Source of the DNA: Candidatus Actinomarina sp.
GTDB lineage: Bacteria; Actinomycetota; Acidimicrobiia; Actinomarinales; Actinomarinaceae
DNA length: 64,000 bases
Direction of reading: 5' to 3'
Assembly (NCBI GenBank): GCA_038147085.1
Contig: JAYQSV010000001.1
Location: 485,983-549,982, forward strand
The notes beneath the pieces are model-generated. The model worked only from the letters and a program-made list of their open reading frames with translations. It searched no databases and was not told the origin of the DNA. Positions 2,989-56,202 of this stretch are shown piece after piece (position 1 is the stretch's first letter; every line of letters begins with the position of its first letter). The position numbers and the translations under genes are program-made.

Positions 2989-2989
2989 T

Positions 2990-3330
2990 TGTTCAGTGAA
3001 AATATAAGCCGGATTCTGTTTGTGTTAAACACAAGATAATCATCCATCTTGCATATTTGTTACCAAATATGTCTAGCTACCTACCCGCAATTTTTAGTCG
3101 AGCAAACTAATTGCTTTTTGGTATTGCTCCGAGAGGGGTTTACAAGCTAACTTAATCACTTAAGCTACTGGTAGTCTCTTACACTACCTTTTCACCCTTG
3201 CTTACTAAGTAAGCGGTTTATTTTCTGTTGCACTTTCCGTCAATTTCTTGCCTGGGAGTTACCCAGCTCTCTGCTCTTTGGAGTCCGGACTTTCCTCGAT
3301 AAATCGCGATTATCCATTTCACCTAATTAG
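2990..3330 (-). ncRNA. rnpB: RNase P RNA, bacterial type A
   Basis: Minus strand carries GAGGAAAGUCCGGACUCC (P4 5' strand), AGUGCAACAGAAA, CAAGGGUGAAAAGGUAGUGUAAGAGACUACC, GUAAACCCCUCUCGGAGCAAUACCAAA and ACAGAAUCCGGCUUAU (P4 3' strand) in the canonical order. No ORF, and locally higher GC. Ends are approximate, within about 10 nt. Confidence 0.85.
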
Positions 3331-11759: not shown

Positions 11760-12821
11760 TTAATTACTTAGTAAATAATTTAATACTGAATCTCCAACTT
11801 CTGATGTAGACATTCCCATTTTTCCTGCAGATAATGATTTAAGATTTTGCGCTGTTGAAATTATTGCATTCTCAATATCATTTGCATAACTTTCTTGTCC
11901 TAGCTCAGCCATCATCATAGATGCCGCACCTATACATGCAAGCGGATTAATTACATTTTTATTTGTATATTTTGGAGCAGACCCACCAATTGGTTCAAAC
12001 ATGGAAACTCCATCAGGATTTATATTTCCTCCTGCAGCAATTCCCATACCACCTTGAATCATCGCTCCTAAGTCAGTAATAATATCACCAAACATATTAT
12101 CAGTAACTATAACATCAAACCATTCAGGATTTTTAACCATCCACATGCAAACTGCATCAACATGCCCATAATCAGTCTCAATCTGTGGATAGTCTTTAGC
12201 TATATCGTAAAAAATTCTTTCCCATAAATCATGTGCGTAAGTAAGTACGTTTGTTTTAGCACATAAAGTTACTTTTTTTCTATTGTATTTATTTGCATAT
12301 TCGAATGCATACTTGATGCATCTATGAATTGCATAATAAGTATTGATTGATTCCTGAGTTGCTACCTCTTTATCAGTTCCATAATGAATAAACCCACCAG
12401 CTCCAGCATATAAACCTTCAGTATTTTCTCTAACAACAGTAAAGTTTATATCGTCAGACGTTTTACCATTTAAAGGTGTTTCGATACCTGGATAAAGAAC
12501 TACTGGTCTTAAATTAATATATTGATCAAATTGTTTTCTTAATTTAAGTAAAATACCTTGTTCCAAGATACCAGGTTTAACATCTGGGTGTCCAATAGCA
12601 CCTAATAAAATTGCATCAGAGTTTTCGAATTCTTCAATATCTTGATTTGTTACGAGCTGCTTACTTTTTAAATATCTTTCTCCACCTAAATCATTATTTG
12701 AAAATTTAAATTCAATATCATATTTACTTGAACTTTTTTCTAAAACTTTAACAGCTTCTGCAACTACTTCTGGTCCAGTTCCATCCCCAGGCAATAGAGA
12801 GATTTTATATATTTTTTTCAT
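11760..12821 (-). CDS. leuB: 3-isopropylmalate dehydrogenase
   Basis: Isocitrate/isopropylmalate dehydrogenase family ([11 protein letters not shown]...). Adjacent to leuA. Confidence 0.85.
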
Positions 12822-14308
12822 TTATTTAATGCATTTAAAAAAGACTCAACAGAACCTTGAACAACATCTGTTGAAATAGCTCTACCTTGTTTCATCAAAT
12901 TTTCATCATTGATAATAGTTACAATTTCTGCTGTCGCATCTGCACCTTTAGTAATACTTTCAACTCTGTAATCAATAAGAGTAGCATCAGAATCTAGAAT
13001 GCTTTTTACCGCTGTAAATGCAGCGTGGATCATTCCATCACCTGTTGATTCTTTTGTAATTTCCTTTCCGTTAACATTAAGGGTTACTTTAGCTGAAGCA
13101 AAGTCATCTCTACTATTAACTGATATTGATACTAATTTAGGTTTATCCGAAGTAGTTTCAACTTGTCCAATGATAGCTCGTAATTCACTTTCTACTATTT
13201 CACCTTTTCTATCTGCAATTTTTTTGAAAGTTTCAAAACTATTATTAAAAGTATTCTCATCAAGGTCAATATTTAATTTCTTTAGAGCGTCTTTAAAACC
13301 AGCTCTACCTGAATGTTTTCCAAGTATAATTTTTGCTTCCTGGCCAACTGAATCTGGAGACATAATTTCATAAGTGGTTCTATTTCTTAAAAATCCATGT
13401 TGATGAATACCGGATTCATGACTAAATGCATTTTTTCCAACTACAGCTTTGTTGTATTGAACAGGATACCCAGTGAGTTTAGAGACTAATCTGGATGTTT
13501 CAAAGATTTCTTTAGTTTCTGCATTGATTTCAACACCATATTGATCTTGTCGAGTTTTGATGGCCATGATAATTTCTTCAGTTGATGTATTTCCTGCTCT
13601 TTCACCGATTCCGTTAATAGCACCTTCAATTTGACGCGCACCTGCAGTTATAGCTGTTAAAGAATTAGCAACTGCAAGTCCAAGATCATTATGGCAATGT
13701 GTTGAAATAATAACGTCATCGTTACCACCTTTAACTTCATCATATACCGAAGTAAGTAATTCTAAATAGTCATGTGGTGTGGCATAACCTACTGTATCAG
13801 GGACATTAATTGTAGTAGCTCCTTCTTCAACAGCAGTTTTTAAAACTTCAATTAAGAAATCTTTATCTGTTCTAGTTGCATCTTGAGCAGAAAATTCAAT
13901 ATTATCACATAGTTTTTTTGCGTACCTCACTGATTCCCTTGTGTCTTTTAAAACTTCTTCTTTAGTTTTTCTAAGCATGTGTTCCATATGTATTTGAGAA
14001 GTTGAAGTAAATACATGAATCCTAGATTGTTTTGCAACTTTTATTGCCTCCCATGCTTGCTCAATATCATCAGGATGACACCTTGCTAATGATGCAATAG
14101 TTGAATTTTTAATATTTTTAGCTATTAGATTTACACCTTCCCAATCTCCAGGAGAGGATGCAGCAAAGCCAGCCTCTATAACATCTACTTTTAATTTTTC
14201 AAGTTGTTGTGCAATTAAGAGCTTTTCATTTGGAGTTAAAGCAATCCCAGGACTTTGTTCGCCGTCTCTTAAAGTCGTATCAAAAATGATAAGTCTATCG
14301 TTTTTCAT
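12818..14308 (-). CDS. leuA: 2-isopropylmalate synthase
   Basis: [18 protein letters not shown]-like TIM barrel plus C-terminal regulatory domain. Confidence 0.9.
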
Positions 14309-15321
14309 ACATCTTTTTTAATATCTTTTGCATTTAGAAATGGCATCATATTTCTCAGTTCTTTACCGATTTCTTCTATCTGATGTTGAGATGATTCAGC
14401 TCTTTTTTGTTTTAAAAATGGAGCCCCTTCACGCGCTTGTGACATCCACTCTTTAGCAAATGCACCAGACTGAATTTCTTCAAGGATTTTTTTCATTTCA
14501 GCTTTAGTTTGGTCGGTAATTATTCTTGATCCTCTTGAAAAATCACCATATTCAGCAGTATCAGAAATTGAATGCCTCATCCATTCAAAACCGCCTTCAT
14601 ATAGCAAATCAACTATTAATTTGACCTCGTGTAAAGTTTCAAAATAAGCACTTTCAGGTTGATATCCTGCTTCAACTAAAGTTTCAAAACCGTTTCTGAT
14701 AAGTTCTGTTAATCCACCGCATAGCACAACTTGTTCGCCAAATAAATCAGTTTCAGTTTCTTCTTTAAAAGTAGTTTTTAGAATTCCTGCTCTACCACCA
14801 CCAATCGCAGAGGCGTAAGACATTGCTAAGTTTTCAGTATTTCCACTTATATCTTTTTCTACAGCAACAAGACAAGGCATACCGCTACCTTCTGAATAAG
14901 TTCTCCTGAGTAGATGACCAGGACCCTTTGGAGCAACCATAGCAACTGAAAGATCTTCTCTGGGTACTATTTCATTGAAATGAATATTAAATCCATGTGC
15001 AAATAGGAGAGTGGCACCATCTTTAATATATTCAGCAATTTCATTATTATATACATCTGCCATTACTTGATCGGGTAGTAACAACATTACAACATCAGCA
15101 TCTGAAACAGAGTTTTTTAAATTTTCAACTTTTAATCCAAATTCCTTAGCGCGTATGTTTGATTTTGAATCCTCTCTAAGCCCAACAGTAACGTCTACGC
15201 CTGATTCAAATAAGTTAAGTGCGTGGGCGTGACCTTGACTTCCAAATCCAACTACGGTAACTTTAAGATTTTTTATTATGTCTTGATCTATATTTGAATC
15301 ATAAATAATTTTTGTACTCAT
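14305..15321 (-). CDS. ilvC: Ketol-acid reductoisomerase
   Basis: [17 protein letters not shown] Rossmann motif. 338 aa. Confidence 0.9.
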
Positions 15322-15329
15322 TTTTCTCC

Positions 15330-15803
15330 TTATAAATTTGTTTGCAAAGCAATTCTTCCTCCTCTGGCCATTTCTATAATGCCAAAAGGTTTCATCAGTT
15401 TTTCAAATTTATCCAAATCTTTAGAAGTTCCAGTTAATTCAAAAACTGCATAATCTTGTCCAACATCAACAGATTTAGCATTTGATAAAGTTGCTTTTTC
15501 AATAACTGAAGTTTGAGAATCTTTATTAATTGATACTTTAAGTAATAAAACTTCAGTTTCAATTGTCATATCTGGGTCAAGCTCGACAATTTTTATAACA
15601 TTTATTAATTTATTTAATTGTTTTTTTACTTGTTCAACAGCATCTAGCTCGGTAACTATTGTCATTTTGGATCTACCTTCAATATTTGTTGGCCCAACTG
15701 ATAGTGAGGTGATATTAAAACCTCTTCTTGAAATTGTTGATGAAACCCTAGCTAAAACACCTGGTTTATCTTCCACTAAAACTGATAGAATTCTTTCTGT
15801 CAT
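15330..15803 (-). CDS. ilvN: Acetolactate synthase small (regulatory) subunit
   Basis: N-terminal ACT domain [28 protein letters not shown]. Confidence 0.85.
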
Positions 15804-17512
15804 AAATTTTCCAAATCTTTTTCATTAAGAAGAATATTATCATTGCTTCCACCAGCTGGAACCATAGGAAATACCATATCATCAGGATCTACGACACAAT
15901 CTACTAAAACTGGTTTATCGTTAATTTCTAACATTCGTTCAAAGATATTTTTTACTTCACTTTTTTGGCTTACTCTCAGTCCGACAGCCCCCATTGATTC
16001 TGCTAATTTAACATAGTCAGGTGTATGGTGAGTTAACTCTGAAGCAGAGAAACGACTTTTATAAAATATTTTTTGCCATTGTCTTACCATGCCATGGTTG
16101 CCATTATTAAAAACTACGATTTTAAGAGGTATATTTTCAGTAGACGCAGTTATAAGTTCTTGGCAGGTCATTTGGAAGCAACCATCACCATCTAAAGCTA
16201 AAACTAATTTATCTGGATAGGCAGCCTTTGCTCCAATTGCAGCTGGAAGAGCATATCCCATTGTGCCAAGACCACCCGAATTTAGCCATGTATTTGGTTT
16301 TTCAAACTTCCAATGTTGTGATATCCACATTTGATGTTGTCCAACTCCTGATACAACAATAGCTTCATCTTTAGTTAATTTTTGAATTTCTTCTAATACG
16401 AATGGTACTTTGAGAGGCCCATCTTCATTTTGTGAATAACTTAAAGGAAAGTCTGTTTTCATTTTTGAGATAGACTCTATCCAAGCTTCTACATCTAACT
16501 TTGAATCTCCCAAAGTATCAATCAATGCAGTTACAACACTTTTTGCATCACCTACAATTGGGACTTCTGCTTCTCTAACTTTTCCAATCTCTGCTGGGTC
16601 GATGTCAGCGTGTATTACTTTTGCGTTTTGTGCAAAAAATTCTGGATTAGCAGTTACTCTATCATCAAACCTCACACCAATAGCAATTAATAAATCAGAT
16701 TTTTGTATTGAAGTAGTTGCAGTATAGTTACCATGCATACCAGGCATTCCTAAGCATAGACTATTACCATCAGGAAATCCTCCTCGTCCCATTAGTGTTG
16801 TTACAACTGGAATATTATATTTTGTTGATAGTTCAAATATTTCATTATTAGCTTTTGAGTGAATAACTCCACCACCAATATATAGAACAGGCTTTTTTGA
16901 ATTTTTAATTAACTCAACAGCTTGCTGAATCATTTTTGGATTTGGTTCAAGAGTTGGTTTATAGCCTGGTAAATTTATCGGTCCTGGCTCTATCCAAGCT
17001 GAAACCTCATTAAGGACATCTTTTGGAATATCAACCAAAACTGGTCCGGGTCTACCTGTAGTTGCTATATATTTTGCTTCTTTTAGTATTTGTGGTATTT
17101 CAGAAGCTTTTGTAATTAGATAATTATGCTTAGTAGCAGCCATTGATAATCCTACAGTGTATGCCTCTTGAAAAGCATCATTACCAATAGCAGTTGTTGC
17201 TACCTGTCCAGTAATGGCTAAAAGCGGTGTTGAGTCCATAAGTGCATTAGCCAAGGAAGTAATTAAATTTGTTGCTCCGGGTCCAGATGTTGCAATAACT
17301 ACACCAAGCTCTCCTGTTGCCTGAGCATATCCTTCAGCCATATGACCTGCACCTTGTTCGTGTCTAGCAAGGACATGCCTGACTGGACTATCATAAAGTG
17401 GATCATAGGCAGGTAGTATTGCTCCACCAGGTACACCAAAGACAGTAGATATATTTAAATATTCAAGACTTCTGACTACTAATTCTGCACCACTTAAATT
17501 TTCGTTACTCAT
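15800..17512 (-). CDS. ilvB: Acetolactate synthase large subunit
   Basis: ThDP-dependent AHAS family. Start moved to the ATG at 17512 (MSNENLSGAELVV...). The ORF-track TTG extension runs through the terminator hairpin. Confidence 0.9.
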   Translation of the reverse strand: MSNENLSGAELVVRSLEYLNISTVFGVPGGAILPAYDPLYDSPVRHVLARHEQGAGHMAEGYAQATGELGVVIATSGPGATNLITSLANALMDSTPLLAITGQVATTAIGNDAFQEAYTVGLSMAATKHNYLITKASEIPQILKEAKYIATTGRPGPVLVDIPKDVLNEVSAWIEPGPINLPGYKPTLEPNPKMIQQAVELIKNSKKPVLYIGGGVIHSKANNEIFELSTKYNIPVVTTLMGRGGFPDGNSLCLGMPGMHGNYTATTSIQKSDLLIAIGVRFDDRVTANPEFFAQNAKVIHADIDPAEIGKVREAEVPIVGDAKSVVTALIDTLGDSKLDVEAWIESISKMKTDFPLSYSQNEDGPLKVPFVLEEIQKLTKDEAIVVSGVGQHQMWISQHWKFEKPNTWLNSGGLGTMGYALPAAIGAKAAYPDKLVLALDGDGCFQMTCQELITASTENIPLKIVVFNNGNHGMVRQWQKIFYKSRFSASELTHHTPDYVKLAESMGAVGLRVSQKSEVKNIFERMLEINDKPVLVDCVVDPDDMVFPMVPAGGSNDNILLNEKDLENL

Positions 17513-17654
17513 AAACTTCTTTCCAAAAAAAAACCTCCCACTTTGGGAGGCGCTCAATGCATAACAATGAGCGCTATTTAAGTAATAGCACTAACACTGA
17601 AATGAGAACGTTTAAATTTTTCATTTAGAACTACTATAGTAATCACTACAAAAA
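17513..17654 (-). promoter_or_regulatory. ilvB leader/attenuator: leader peptide ORF, 7-bp hairpin, intrinsic terminator (hairpin + U9)
   Basis: Minus strand reads ATG AAA AAT TTA AAC GTT CTC ATT TCA GTG TTA GTG CTA TTA CTT AAA TAG (MKNLNVLISVLVLLLK). Then hairpin GCGCUCA(uuguuaugcau)UGAGCGC (17550..17574). Then CCUCCCAaagUGGGAGG (17534..17550) + UUUUUUUUU (17525..17533), 12 nt before the ilvB ATG. Confidence 0.65.
17574..17624 (-). CDS. ilvB operon leader peptide MKNLNVLISVLVLLLK (16 aa, 10 of 16 residues Leu/Val/Ile)
   Basis: Short ORF found by eye upstream of ilvB. Branched-chain-rich, with its stop codon overlapping the first hairpin. Confidence 0.6.
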   Translation of the reverse strand: MKNLNVLISVLVLLLK

Positions 17655-56097: not shown

Positions 56098-56120
56098 ATT
56101 TTAATCAATTCTTTAAATAG

Positions 56121-56202
56121 TACCCGGAGGGGGAGTCGAACCCCCACATCCGAAGATACTGGATTTTGAATCCAGCGCGTCTGCCAATTCCGCCATCCGG
56201 GC
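56121..56202 (-). tRNA. tRNA-Leu (anticodon CAA)
   Basis: Reverse complement GCCCGGATGGCGGAATTGGCAGACGCGCTGGATTCAAAATCCAGTATCTTCGGATGTGGGGGTTCGACTCCCCCTCCGGGTA. Has D-arm, anticodon loop UUCAAAA, long variable arm and GGTTCGA T-loop. CCA is not encoded. Confidence 0.85.

What the first reader, a model, noticed from the sequence alone, without database searches (positions are those of the whole stretch)
17513..17654. Branched-chain amino-acid leader peptide and transcription attenuator upstream of ilvB
The 142 nt upstream of ilvB on the minus strand holds a 16-codon ORF, MKNLNVLISVLVLLLK, in which 10 of 16 residues are Leu/Val/Ile. Its stop codon overlaps a 7-bp hairpin (GCGCUCA...UGAGCGC). 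That hairpin abuts a textbook intrinsic terminator (CCUCCCA-aag-UGGGAGG followed by U9), which ends 12 nt before the ilvB ATG. This is the architecture of ribosome-mediated attenuation, as in enterobacterial ilvBN/ilvGMEDA and Corynebacterium ilvBNC, found here in an AT-rich actinobacterium-like genome. I could not pick out an antiterminator pairing by eye, so the switching mechanism is open.
Basis: partly seen in the sequence, partly recalled or inferred. Interest (0 to 1): 0.7.

Follow-up and report, generated by a model that had tools for sequence, protein, structure and literature searches.

The report
Branched-chain amino-acid leader-peptide attenuator of ilvB
The short stretch in front of the ilvB-ilvN-ilvC-leuA-leuB operon of this marine Actinomarinales genome is a real leader-peptide transcription attenuator, an AT-rich and very compact member of a family found upstream of ilvB across Actinobacteria and recently validated in Mycobacterium tuberculosis, so it is a sound but largely expected finding.

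Summary
A 16-codon ORF (MKNLNVLISVLVLLLK, 10 Ile/Leu/Val) ends in a UAG whose G starts a 7-bp hairpin. That hairpin abuts an 8-bp terminator with U9, which ends 12 nt before the ilvB ATG.

The interpretation also holds. A covariance model built only from GC-rich Acidimicrobiia finds one hit in the 64-kb window, exactly here (E about 5e-6). It hits once upstream of ilvB in 97 of 100 sources searched. All 19 stem pairs covary. The same layout occurs in Nocardia, Tsukamurella and Nonomuraea, and the M. tuberculosis ilvB1 attenuator is experimentally proven (PMC13236596).

Rare codons mark the sensing site: GUA in GC-rich relatives, GUG in this AT-rich genome.

The antiterminator and terminator share only 2 nt. 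A stall at codons 9-13 trims the terminator from 8 to 6 bp, favoured by only 1.2 kcal/mol. Outside Actinomarinales there is no overlap at all, so the switching step remains incompletely explained.

Verdict: a new member of a known kind, not represented in Rfam, of modest interest.

The parts
17633..17640 (-). Palindromic -10-like box ACTATAGT. It reads TATAGT at 17638..17633 on the minus strand and is the likely promoter of the leader transcript. The same hexamer reads on the plus strand towards the divergent queG-like gene.
   Evidence: Invariant in 8 of 8 Actinomarinales intergenic regions. It lies 8 nt upstream of the uORF ATG in 7 of 7 unique sequences. The plus-strand match is listed. Promoter function is inferred, not shown.
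17574..17624 (-). Leader ORF (uORF) of 16 codons plus UAG: MKNLNVLISVLVLLLK. There is no Shine-Dalgarno sequence, and the ATG sits 8 nt after the -10 box, so it is probably leaderless or nearly so.
   Evidence: The length is fixed at 16 codons in all 8 Actinomarinales while the loops vary in length. ILV character is kept despite substitutions. Translation is not shown.
17586..17600 (-). Predicted regulatory stall window, codons 9-13 (S V L V L). It contains the rare codons GUG (V10, V12) and CUA (L13).
   Evidence: The ribosome-mask folding model gives the A-full / terminator-trimmed state only for A-site codons 9-13. GUG is 5% of Val codons and CUA 12% of Leu codons in 48 window ORFs.
17570..17592 (-). 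Hairpin 1:2 (anti-antiterminator): AGUGCUAUU / AAUAGCGCU, 9 bp, -9.6 kcal/mol. It pairs codons 12-14 with the stop-codon region and sequesters the 5' arm of hairpin A.
   Evidence: The arms AGUGCU...AGCGCU are invariant in 8 of 8 Actinomarinales. Leader:A1 complementarity has z = -2.7 in this clade only. There is no covariation, because both arms are invariant.
17550..17574 (-). Hairpin A (2:3, candidate antiterminator): GCGCUCA-11 nt-UGAGCGC, 7 bp, -11.4 kcal/mol. Its 5' arm starts at the G of the UAG stop, and its last two nt (17551-17550) are also the two basal nt of the terminator.
   Evidence: Family-wide, the 5' arm starts inside the stop codon in 124 of 129 sequences and the mean z is -4.1. 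All 10 pairs show compensatory changes.
17525..17551 (-). Intrinsic terminator T: GCCUCCCA-AAG-UGGGAGGU (17551..17533, 8 bp, -12.9 kcal/mol) plus U9 (17533..17525).
   Evidence: All 9 model pairs covary across the family. The stem is invariant and the loop is variable within Actinomarinales.
17526..17591 (-). Extent of the match to covariance model R1, which was built from 60 non-Actinomarinales Acidimicrobiia ilvB leaders.
   Evidence: 28.3 bits, E = 4.9e-6, full-length match to model positions 1-73. It is the only hit in the window below E = 1, including with filters off.
11760..17512 (-). The regulated operon: ilvB (17512..15800), ilvN (15803..15330), ilvC (15321..14305), leuA (14308..12818), leuB (12821..11760).
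   Evidence: NCBIfam equivalog hits with E from 1e-49 to 1e-253. The genes are packed with 4-nt overlaps. The ilvB start at ATG 17512 is supported by full-length alignment to relatives.

Best explanation
This is a ribosome-mediated (leader-peptide) transcription attenuator controlling the ilvB-ilvN-ilvC-leuA-leuB operon. It is an Actinomarinales member of the actinobacterial ilvB-leader family.

Inferred course of events:
1. Transcription starts a few nt before the leader ATG, from the TATAGT box. The 16-codon Ile/Leu/Val-rich uORF is translated at once, probably as a leaderless message.
2. When charged BCAA-tRNAs are plentiful, the ribosome runs to the UAG. There it covers the 5' arm of hairpin A, which begins inside the stop codon. 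After release, the leader refolds into hairpin 1:2, which also sequesters that arm. In both cases the full 8-bp terminator plus U9 forms, and transcription stops about 100 nt from the start.
3. When Val- or Leu-tRNA is scarce, the ribosome stalls at codons 9-13, which carry the rare GUG and CUA codons. This masks segment 1 and leaves the stop region free, so hairpin A forms as RNA polymerase moves on.
4. Hairpin A holds the two basal nucleotides of the terminator. The terminator shrinks to 6 bp (-8.8 instead of -12.9 kcal/mol) and is pushed 2 nt away from the U tract. Termination efficiency falls and the operon is read through.

What is shown: the anatomy, its conservation, stem covariation, rare-codon placement and homology to the family.

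What is inferred: the promoter, translation of the uORF, the stall positions, and above all whether a 2-nt overlap is enough to relieve termination. I put attenuation as such at about 0.8. I put the 2-nt competition as the main switching step at about 0.4.
For: - Anatomy is as described.
- Operon identity is confirmed.
- A covariance model built without any Actinomarinales sequence finds exactly this site in the window (E = 4.9e-6; the only hit below E = 1 with filters off) and the equivalent site in six relatives.
- The model gives one hit per locus, always upstream of ilvB on the ilvB strand, in 97 of 100 sources.
- All 19 stem pairs have compensatory changes. 86% of cells are paired against 73% in shuffles and 38-60% in slid controls. 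The covariation score is 0.42 against 0.19, reached by 0 of 500 shuffles.
- Hairpin A starts inside the stop codon in 124 of 129 sequences.
- Rare codons sit in the leader. In the window, GUG is 5% of Val codons and is used for 2 of the 3 leader Val codons. In GC-rich relatives, GUA is 65% of leader Val codons against 3.6% in their own ilvB genes. The codon identity therefore flips with genome composition while rarity is kept.
- In the state model, Actinomarinales terminator basal-pair probability falls from 0.84 (ribosome at the stop) to 0.10-0.14 (A-site at codon -5 or -4). A7+T6 is -20.2 kcal/mol against -19.0 for A5+T8.
- The same CUCGUA / hairpin / terminator design occurs in Nocardia, Tsukamurella and Nonomuraea.
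- Experiment in a homologous system: in the Mtb ilvB1 leader, changing LVVI (which includes GUA) to AAAA abolishes induction, and a terminated leader transcript of about 120 nt is seen (PMC13236596). Corynebacterium ilvB-II behaves as an attenuator (PMC10272879).
Against: - In equilibrium folding the core of the terminator forms in every ribosome state (mean pair probability 0.77 or higher). Only its two basal pairs are contested, and by a margin of 1.2 kcal/mol.
- A 6-bp stem followed by G and U9 may still terminate well.
- In the other 122 family members, hairpin A and the terminator do not overlap. The hairpin-A region is less complementary to either terminator arm than shuffled sequence (z about +0.8 to +0.9). 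The overlap mechanism therefore cannot be the ancestral or general one.
- Hairpin 1:2 and the stems within Actinomarinales are supported by invariance only, not by covariation.
- In S. coelicolor, mutating the ilvB leader codons had no effect on regulation (cited in PMC1262725).
- No transcript or ribosome data exist for this uncultured organism.
Confidence: 0.8

Rival explanations
1. Same element and same sensing by a stalled ribosome, but hairpin A relieves termination without base-pair competition. For example, a stable helix sitting 0-3 nt upstream of the terminator might sterically hinder completion of the terminator stem in the RNA exit channel. Alternatively, hairpin A might act on RNA polymerase as a pause or antitermination hairpin. 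On this view the 2-nt overlap in Actinomarinales is incidental or a secondary reinforcement.
For: - In 109 of 129 family members the terminator loses no pair to hairpin A.
- There is no hidden antiterminator. Complementarity of the A region to T1 or T2 is below shuffles.
- Hairpin A nevertheless abuts the terminator within 3 nt in 86% of sequences, and within 0-1 nt in Nocardia, Tsukamurella and Nonomuraea.
- The position of hairpin A relative to the regulatory codon and the stop codon is tightly conserved.
Against: - I know of no precedent for such a mechanism.
- 14% of members have gaps of 4-6 nt.
- The Mtb study describes its antiterminator and terminator as mutually exclusive structures (PMC13236596), although I could not inspect that sequence.
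- Nearest-neighbour models may miss the relevant competing folds or the kinetics.
Confidence: 0.2
2. The terminator is a constitutive or otherwise-controlled brake that damps expression. Control might come from ppGpp, a protein, or growth-rate effects on RNA polymerase. On this view the ILV-rich uORF is translated but its codons are not the sensor, as was reported for S. coelicolor ilvB.
For: - The S. coelicolor codon substitutions had no effect (cited in PMC1262725).
- The terminator is predicted to form in all modelled states.
- The palindromic ACTATAGT could also be a protein-binding site.
Against: - Rare-codon enrichment is 18-fold for GUA in relatives, and the rare codon switches to GUG in this AT-rich genome. 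That is hard to explain without codon-level sensing.
- The hairpin is fixed to the stop codon in 124 of 129 sequences.
- In Mtb, LVVI to AAAA abolishes induction (PMC13236596).
Confidence: 0.1
3. The ORF encodes a functional small hydrophobic membrane peptide with its own terminator, and its position next to ilvB is coincidental.
For: The peptide is strongly hydrophobic, with basic residues at or near its ends.
Against: - The peptide sequence is poorly conserved apart from its ILV content, and shrinks to 9 codons in relatives, for example MTSSILVLP.
- Conservation is at the RNA-structure and codon-choice level.
- The element is tied to ilvB in 97 of 100 sources and in three Actinomycetes orders.
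- A strong terminator directly in front of an essential biosynthetic operon, with no other promoter in the remaining 12 nt, only makes sense as regulation.
Confidence: 0.03
4. A metabolite- or tRNA-binding riboswitch (ppGpp riboswitch, T-box or similar) rather than a leader peptide.
For: ilvB is riboswitch-controlled in some Firmicutes (PMC10272879).
Against: - No Rfam family matches at E of 10 or less apart from noise in the window. None matches in 19 relatives at gathering score, and none in 5 Actinomycetes loci at E of 0.1 or less.
- Only about 50 nt lie between the stop codon and the U tract, both loops are unconserved, and an in-frame ORF is always present.
Confidence: 0.02

Closest known systems
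Mycobacterium tuberculosis ilvB1NC leader attenuator (Eckartt et al. 2026, PMC13236596; uORF translation shown by D'Halluin et al., bioRxiv 10.1101/2022.06.01.494293)
   Same: - Both lie upstream of ilvB(N)C in an actinobacterium.
- Both have a short translated uORF whose sensing codons are a Leu-Val-Val/Ile run that includes a rare Val codon.
- In both, a ribosome at the stop codon masks the antiterminator, and a Rho-independent terminator with a U tract follows.
- Both give a short terminated leader transcript (about 120 nt in Mtb, about 100 nt predicted here).
- The Mycobacteriales proxies I could fetch (Nocardia LLVIGRRV, Tsukamurella LLVIGRRV) share the CUCGUA core and the hairpin-plus-terminator layout with the Acidimicrobiia family.
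   Different: - Here the uORF stops right at the base of the hairpin (UAG fused to the stem). In the Nocardia, Tsukamurella and Nonomuraea leaders I could fetch the uORF instead runs on into the stem. The Mtb sequence itself was not available; its stop codon is UGA (PMC13236596).
- The rare Val codon is GUG, not GUA.
- The uORF is probably leaderless, whereas the Mtb uORF was classed as 'isolated' rather than leaderless (D'Halluin et al.).
- The U tract ends only 12 nt before the gene start, against about 40 nt in Mtb.
- An extra 1:2 hairpin is present.
- The operon also carries leuA and leuB.
- There is no experimental evidence for this organism. I could not obtain the Mtb sequence for a direct alignment.
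Corynebacterium ilvB-II motif / C. glutamicum ilvBNC leader (Narunsky et al. 2023, PMC10272879)
   Same: Both have a BCAA-rich uORF of 15-17 codons upstream of ilvB, followed by an intrinsic terminator, and both repress in rich medium and are interpreted as attenuation. Here too the free RNA folds the uORF into a hairpin.
   Different: In ilvB-II the antiterminator pairs the loop of P1 with the 3' shoulder of the lower terminator stem, about 150 nt upstream of ilvB. Here no segment is complementary to the 3' terminator arm. No sequence-level comparison was possible, and no Rfam model matched.
Predicted ilvB leader peptides with terminators in Corynebacterium, Mycobacterium and Streptomyces (Seliverstov et al. 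2005, PMC1262725)
   Same: The same prediction applies: short ORFs with runs of Ile/Val/Leu codons next to a terminator with poly-U upstream of ilvB, with no clear antiterminator and an unclear mode of regulation.
   Different: That survey did not include Acidimicrobiia or any AT-rich actinobacterium. It described the ORFs as overlapping the terminator hairpins, whereas here the ORF overlaps the upstream hairpin only.
Enterobacterial ilvBN, ilvGMEDA and leu leader attenuators (textbook knowledge, not tested here)
   Same: The logic is the same: the ribosome's position on a leader ORF rich in regulatory, often rare, codons chooses between 1:2, 2:3 and 3:4 pairings.
   Different: The enterobacterial antiterminator and terminator share a whole stem arm, whereas here they share 2 nt. 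Those leaders are longer (about 150-190 nt) and use Shine-Dalgarno-led uORFs. There is no sequence homology.
Bacillus subtilis trp leader (TRAP system), as a precedent for small overlaps
   Same: As I recall, its antiterminator and terminator overlap by only 4 nt and are nevertheless functionally exclusive. This shows that a small overlap at the base of a terminator can be enough.
   Different: It is protein-mediated rather than ribosome-mediated, it is unrelated in sequence, and its overlap is 4 nt rather than 2.

Membership tests
Classical ribosome-mediated transcription attenuator | A short ORF enriched in codons for the pathway's end products, immediately upstream of the biosynthetic operon | tested here: met
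   10 of 16 residues are ILV, P = 1e-3. The operon is ilvBNC-leuAB.
Classical ribosome-mediated transcription attenuator | An intrinsic terminator (G+C stem plus U tract) between the leader ORF and the first structural gene | tested here: met
   8-bp stem, -12.9 kcal/mol, U9, ending 12 nt before the ATG. The stem covaries across the family.
Classical ribosome-mediated transcription attenuator | An antiterminator that is mutually exclusive with the terminator because they share a segment | tested here: inconclusive
   Hairpin A shares only 2 nt with the terminator. A7+T6 is favoured over A5+T8 by 1.2 kcal/mol, and the terminator core always forms. In 109 of 129 family members the terminator loses no pair to hairpin A.
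Classical ribosome-mediated transcription attenuator | Ribosome position (stalled at regulatory codons versus at the stop codon) selects the fold | tested here: met
   This was tested in silico only. Stalls at codons 9-13 give A-full / T-trimmed. A ribosome at the stop codon, or free RNA, gives 1:2 or a masked hairpin A with the full terminator. In vivo behaviour was not tested.
Classical ribosome-mediated transcription attenuator | Use of rare codons at the sensing positions | tested here: met
   GUG is 5% of Val codons (used at V10 and V12), CUA 12% (L13) and CUC 3% (L7). In relatives, GUA is 65% of leader Val codons against 3.6% background.
Classical ribosome-mediated transcription attenuator | The leader ORF is translated, and read-through responds to amino-acid supply | not testable with these tools
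   The organism is uncultured and no transcript or ribosome-profiling data are available here.
Actinobacterial ilvB leader family (Acidimicrobiia model R1; Mtb ilvB1 type) | A significant match to a sequence-and-structure model built from other members | tested here: met
   R1 was built from 60 non-Actinomarinales sequences. The window hit is 28.3 bits, E = 4.9e-6, full length, and unique. Nonomuraea also matches at E = 9e-6. Tsukamurella (E = 0.03) and Nocardia (E = 1.3) match only weakly.
Actinobacterial ilvB leader family (Acidimicrobiia model R1; Mtb ilvB1 type) | Conserved position directly upstream of ilvB on the same strand | tested here: met
   97 of 100 sources, one hit each. In the window it lies 12 nt upstream of ilvB.
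Actinobacterial ilvB leader family (Acidimicrobiia model R1; Mtb ilvB1 type) | A Leu-Val core (CUC GUA) with a G+C hairpin beginning about 5-13 nt after the rare Val codon | tested here: met
   The family distance distribution peaks at 5-8 and 10-13 nt. The window has GUG-CUA instead of CUC-GUA, and its last GUG lies 14 nt from the stem. The L001-type Actinomarinales leaders have it at 8 nt. The codon identity differs but the rarity is kept.
Actinobacterial ilvB leader family (Acidimicrobiia model R1; Mtb ilvB1 type) | Direct sequence or structure alignment to the experimentally validated Mtb ilvB1 leader | not tested
   The Mtb leader sequence could not be obtained. It is not in the paper's text or supplements, and PLSDB holds no Mycobacterium record with ilvB. 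Nocardia and Tsukamurella served as proxies.
Curated Rfam families (amino-acid leaders, ilvB-associated motifs, riboswitches, T-box) | A match at or near a family's gathering score | tested here: not met
   In the window the best hits are noise (Phe_leader 18 bits against a gathering score of 55; E 0.9-10). There were 0 hits in 19 relatives at gathering score and 0 hits at E of 0.1 or less in 5 Actinomycetes loci.

The most novel reading that the evidence does not exclude
Across the whole actinobacterial ilvB-leader family, including this element, the ribosome-gated hairpin fused to the stop codon may relieve termination without competing for the terminator's bases. It would act as a rigid helix placed 0-3 nt upstream that hinders completion of an otherwise insulated terminator, or as a hairpin that modifies RNA polymerase. 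That would be a mode of leader-peptide attenuation distinct from the textbook alternative-pairing model. It could also explain the 'paradoxical' Streptomyces data and the long-standing failure to find an antiterminator in these leaders.
Probability: 0.15. Interest if true: 0.75.

Novelty: new member of a known kind. Interest (0 to 1): 0.3.

Why it matters
The element gives Candidatus Actinomarinales, a streamlined and uncultured marine actinobacterium, a concrete and testable cis-regulatory element. It suggests that a genome of about 29% GC has kept amino-acid-sensing attenuation in about 100 nt, re-coded for its own codon usage: the rare Val codon GUG replaces the GUA used by GC-rich relatives.

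The comparative set assembled here has more general uses.
- It defines a phylum-wide ilvB-leader family that Rfam does not contain. It comprises 129 unique elements, a calibrated covariance model and covariation support for two hairpins. It could be used to annotate genomes and to stop gene callers from extending ilvB over the attenuator.
- It sharpens an open mechanistic question. In most members the ribosome-gated hairpin and the terminator do not overlap, and sequence complementarity between them is lower than in shuffled sequence.

Tried and rejected
- Rfam scans of the window (E of 10 or less), of 19 relatives (gathering score) and of 5 Actinomycetes loci (E of 0.1 or less) found no family. 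I rejected riboswitch, T-box and known-leader membership.
- I searched for a hidden antiterminator with duplex energies against shuffles: hairpin-A region against T1 and T2, and leader against T2, A1 and A2. Nothing was found outside the Actinomarinales 1:2 pairing, and the A region is depleted in complementarity to T. My eye-picked 'T1 mimics' in hairpin-A loops of the CCCCUCGC subfamily did not survive this test.
- The equilibrium ribosome-mask model on 129 sequences showed no state that removes the terminator. The same held for Nocardia, Tsukamurella and Nonomuraea.
- RNAalifold on the plain MAFFT alignment gave only 8 pairs, because the alignment is not structure-aware. I replaced it with a model-based alignment.
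- A strict TANNNT -10 box 5-10 nt upstream of the uORF start is present in only 22% of the family, against 2-3% in controls. The leaderless reading is therefore well supported only for Actinomarinales (7 of 7).
- Attempts to get the Mtb leader sequence failed: the paper's text and supplements, the PDB route and PLSDB.
- The idea that GGGAGG in the terminator is the ilvB Shine-Dalgarno sequence was rejected, because it lies 21 nt or more from the ATG here and 13-200 nt away in relatives.
- The terminator cannot belong to a neighbouring gene, because both flanking genes start here rather than end here.
- The plus strand of the hairpin has no U tract, so the terminator is not bidirectional.
Full report
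**1. The observation**

On the minus strand the 142-nt intergenic region 17513..17654 contains the following elements.
- An ORF from ATG 17624 to TAG 17576..17574, encoding MKNLNVLISVLVLLLK (10 of 16 residues Ile/Leu/Val).
- A 7-bp hairpin, GCGCUCA-11 nt-UGAGCGC (17574..17550), whose first G is the G of the stop codon. I call it hairpin A.
- Directly abutting it, a terminator GCCUCCCA-AAG-UGGGAGGU (17551..17533; 8 pairs including a closing G-U), with nine U (17533..17525).
- Twelve nt further on, the ilvB ATG at 17512.

The region folds better than any of 200 dinucleotide shuffles (-41.5 kcal/mol, z = -3.9). The ILV content has P = 1e-3 against the window's own 25.9% ILV.

The flanking genes are confirmed by NCBIfam. 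On the minus strand they are ilvB, ilvN, ilvC, leuA and leuB, packed with 4-nt overlaps. On the plus strand a queG-like gene and ilvD diverge from the operon. No gene ends in this intergenic region, so the terminator cannot serve a neighbouring gene.

**2. Whose genome, and who else has the element**

The IlvB protein finds its closest relatives (82-85% identity) in Candidatus Actinomarina / Actinomarinales MAGs and single-cell genomes. The next closest (52-64%) are GC-rich Acidimicrobiia. The window is about 29% GC.

In all eight Actinomarinales sequences the intergenic region keeps these features:
- a palindromic ACTATAGT box 8 nt upstream of the uORF ATG;
- a uORF of exactly 16 codons that stays ILV-rich despite many substitutions;
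- the invariant arms AGUGCU...AGCGCU, GCGCUC...GAGCGC and GCCUCCC...GGGAGGU;
- the U9 tract.

Both hairpin loops vary freely in sequence, and the terminator loop also varies in length.

Surprisingly, the same architecture is present upstream of ilvB in GC-rich Acidimicrobiia: a short ORF ending in an ILV run, a stop codon fused to a G+C hairpin, then a CCUCCC/GGGAGG-type terminator. Example leader peptides are MTSSILVLP* and MTMKQDFAADVVLLIE*.

**3. Formal homology and structure tests**

I built a covariance model (R1) from 60 diverse non-Actinomarinales elements.
- It finds a single full-length hit in the 64-kb window, at 17526..17591 on the minus strand (28.3 bits, E = 4.9e-6). The next best hit has E = 1.6, even with filters off.
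- It finds one hit at the equivalent place in each Actinomarinales locus.
- It finds one hit upstream of ilvB in 97 of 100 sources.

On the model-based alignment all 19 pairs show compensatory double changes. 86% of cells are paired, against 73% in column shuffles and 38-60% in slid controls. The covariation score is 0.42 against 0.19, reached by 0 of 500 shuffles. This alignment is fitted to the structure, which inflates the figures somewhat. An independent per-sequence analysis agrees: hairpin A has a mean z of -4.1, and its 5' arm starts inside the stop codon in 124 of 129 sequences.

No Rfam 15 family matches the element in the window, in 19 relatives or in 5 Actinomycetes loci.

**4. Link to what is known**

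Leader peptides with terminators upstream of ilvB were predicted in Corynebacterium, Mycobacterium and Streptomyces in 2005. No clear antiterminator was found, and a puzzling negative mutational result in S. coelicolor was noted (PMC1262725).

The Corynebacterium element (the ilvB-II motif) was characterised as a uORF attenuator in 2023 (PMC10272879).

In 2026 the M. tuberculosis ilvB1 leader was shown experimentally to be a BCAA-sensing attenuator (PMC13236596):
- a translated uORF with regulatory codons LVVI (GUA highlighted);
- a ribosome at the stop codon masking the antiterminator;
- a Rho-independent terminator;
- a terminated transcript of about 120 nt;
- loss of induction when LVVI is changed to AAAA.

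I could not obtain the Mtb sequence. Chromosome-scale actinomycete records in PLSDB gave me three proxies:
- Nocardia farcinica: (V)NRNELLVIGRRVQR*
- Tsukamurella: MKHSNQLLVIGRRVNA*
- Nonomuraea: MLRSEILVVLRRRAGR*

Each has the same CUCGUA core, a G+C hairpin beginning about 8 nt after the GUA codon, and an adjacent CCCUCG-type terminator with a U tract. Model R1 matches Nonomuraea at E = 9e-6 and the other two weakly. The family is therefore phylum-wide. In Acidimicrobiia the uORF stops at the base of the hairpin, whereas in Actinomycetes it runs on into it.

**5. Codon evidence for sensing**

In the GC-rich relatives GUA makes up 65% of Val codons in the last eight leader codons but only 3.6% in their own ilvB genes. 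CUU and AUU are also enriched. 116 of 122 leaders carry an in-frame GUA at a constrained distance from hairpin A.

In the AT-rich window the rare Val codon is GUG (5% of Val codons in 48 ORFs). It supplies two of the three leader Val codons (V10, V12). CUA (12%) and CUC (3%) are also used.

So the codon identity has flipped with genome composition while its rarity is preserved. This is what a tRNA-charging sensor predicts, and it is hard to explain otherwise. In Actinomarinales GUGCU also pairs with AGCGC in hairpin 1:2, so RNA structure may contribute to its conservation.

UAG is the stop codon in 85% of leaders, although it is the rarest stop in the window (9 of 48). Its G, and often its A, are part of hairpin A.

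**6. How it probably switches**

The MFE fold revealed a third hairpin, 1:2 (AGUGCUAUU / AAUAGCGCU, 17592..17570, -9.6 kcal/mol). It pairs codons 12-14 with the stop region and so competes with the 5' arm of hairpin A. Complementarity between the leader and A1 is significant only in Actinomarinales (z = -2.7).

I modelled a ribosome footprint from -15 to +12 around the A-site codon.
- Free RNA, or a ribosome at the stop codon, gives hairpin 1:2 or a masked hairpin A, together with the full 8-bp terminator.
- A stall at codons 9-13, exactly where the rare GUG, GUG and CUA codons lie, frees the stop region. The full hairpin A forms and takes the two basal nucleotides (17551-17550) of the terminator.
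- The basal-pair probability falls from 0.84 to 0.10-0.14 in all seven unique Actinomarinales sequences.
- The terminator shrinks from 7-8 bp (about -12.5 kcal/mol) to 5-6 bp (about -8.4 kcal/mol), and its stem moves 2 nt away from the U tract.

This is the classical 1:2 / 2:3 / 3:4 logic, but with a minimal overlap. The preference is only 1.2 kcal/mol (-20.2 against -19.0), and the terminator core forms in every state. From memory, the B. subtilis trp leader works with a 4-nt overlap, so a small overlap is not absurd. Whether 2 nt suffice is an inference.

**7. What remains unexplained**

In the other 122 family members, and in the three Actinomycetes, hairpin A and the terminator do not overlap. 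The hairpin-A region is significantly less complementary to either terminator arm than shuffled sequence (z about +0.8 to +0.9).

Hairpin A nevertheless sits within 3 nt of the terminator in 86% of sequences, and its gating by ribosome position is precisely conserved.

Either nearest-neighbour equilibrium models miss the relevant competition, or the family uses a non-pairing way of relieving termination, such as steric hindrance or an effect on RNA polymerase. I rate the latter at about 0.15. It is the most novel reading the data allow.

**8. Verdict**

The element is an AT-rich, compact and probably leaderless member of the actinobacterial ilvB leader-peptide attenuator family. That kind has been predicted since 2005 and is experimentally validated in Mtb and Corynebacterium.

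It is new only in its host clade, in its re-coded rare codons, in the extra 1:2 hairpin, and in not being covered by Rfam. Interest is modest (0.3). The family-wide absence of an antiterminator overlap is the one aspect that could repay experiments.

Noticed in passing
window 17633..17640 (both strands): A perfectly palindromic -10-like box, ACTATAGT, lies in the 30 nt between the divergent queG-like ATG (17655, plus strand) and the leader ATG (17624, minus strand). It is invariant in 8 of 8 Actinomarinales and reads TATAGT in both directions. It may be a shared back-to-back promoter or an operator. The uORF ATG follows 8 nt later without a Shine-Dalgarno sequence, which suggests a leaderless uORF.
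   Followed up: partly
window 17512..17557, minus strand: The longest ilvB ORF starts at TTG 17557 (585 aa). That start would run through hairpin A and the terminator. Alignment to relatives supports ATG 17512 (570 aa). Automatic gene callers could over-extend ilvB and hide the attenuator.
   Followed up: yes
window 11760..17512, minus strand: leuA and leuB are fused to ilvBNC with 4-nt start/stop overlaps, so one attenuator would govern Ile/Val and Leu genes together. There is no separate leuA leader, so the actinobacterial 'LEU element' described in PMC1262725 has no room here.
   Followed up: no
L005-L160 (GC-rich Acidimicrobiia ilvB leaders) compared with window 17589..17597: The rare codon flips with genome composition. 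GUA is 65% of leader Val codons but 3.6% of ilvB Val codons in GC-rich relatives. The AT-rich window instead uses GUG, which is 5% of its Val codons.
   Followed up: yes
129 unique ilvB leaders (L001-L160 and the window): UAG is the leader stop codon in 85% of cases (113 of 133 detected elements), and in 8 of 8 Actinomarinales, although it is the rarest stop in the window (9 of 48 ORFs). Its G or AG forms the first pair or pairs of hairpin A. An additional role, such as RF1-specific slow release, cannot be excluded.
   Followed up: partly
terminator stems, window 17533..17551 and relatives: The terminator arms are strand-asymmetric and nearly constant from 29% to 70% GC genomes: all-pyrimidine CCUCCC on the 5' side and all-purine GGGAGG on the 3' side. 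These resemble an anti-Shine-Dalgarno and a Shine-Dalgarno sequence. The asymmetry may simply insulate the terminator from hairpin A, but the sequence constancy is unexplained.
   Followed up: partly
L164 (Rhodococcus sp. USK10 plasmid), L165 (Streptomyces sp. NBC_00212 plasmid): Plasmid-borne extra copies of ilvB-ilvN-ilvC lack the leader element (no model hit).
   Followed up: no
window 2989..3325 (-) and 56120..56202 (-): Bacterial RNase P RNA class A (278 bits) and a tRNA-Leu(CAA) gene. These are the only Rfam or ARAGORN hits in the window.
   Followed up: no
PLSDB records NZ_LT559118.1 (11.85 Mb, Nonomuraea 'plasmid I') and NZ_LN868939.1 (2.66 Mb, Nocardia 'plasmid 2'): These 'plasmid' records are chromosome-scale and carry core genes such as ilvB together with its attenuator. 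They appear to be mislabelled chromosome sequences.
   Followed up: no
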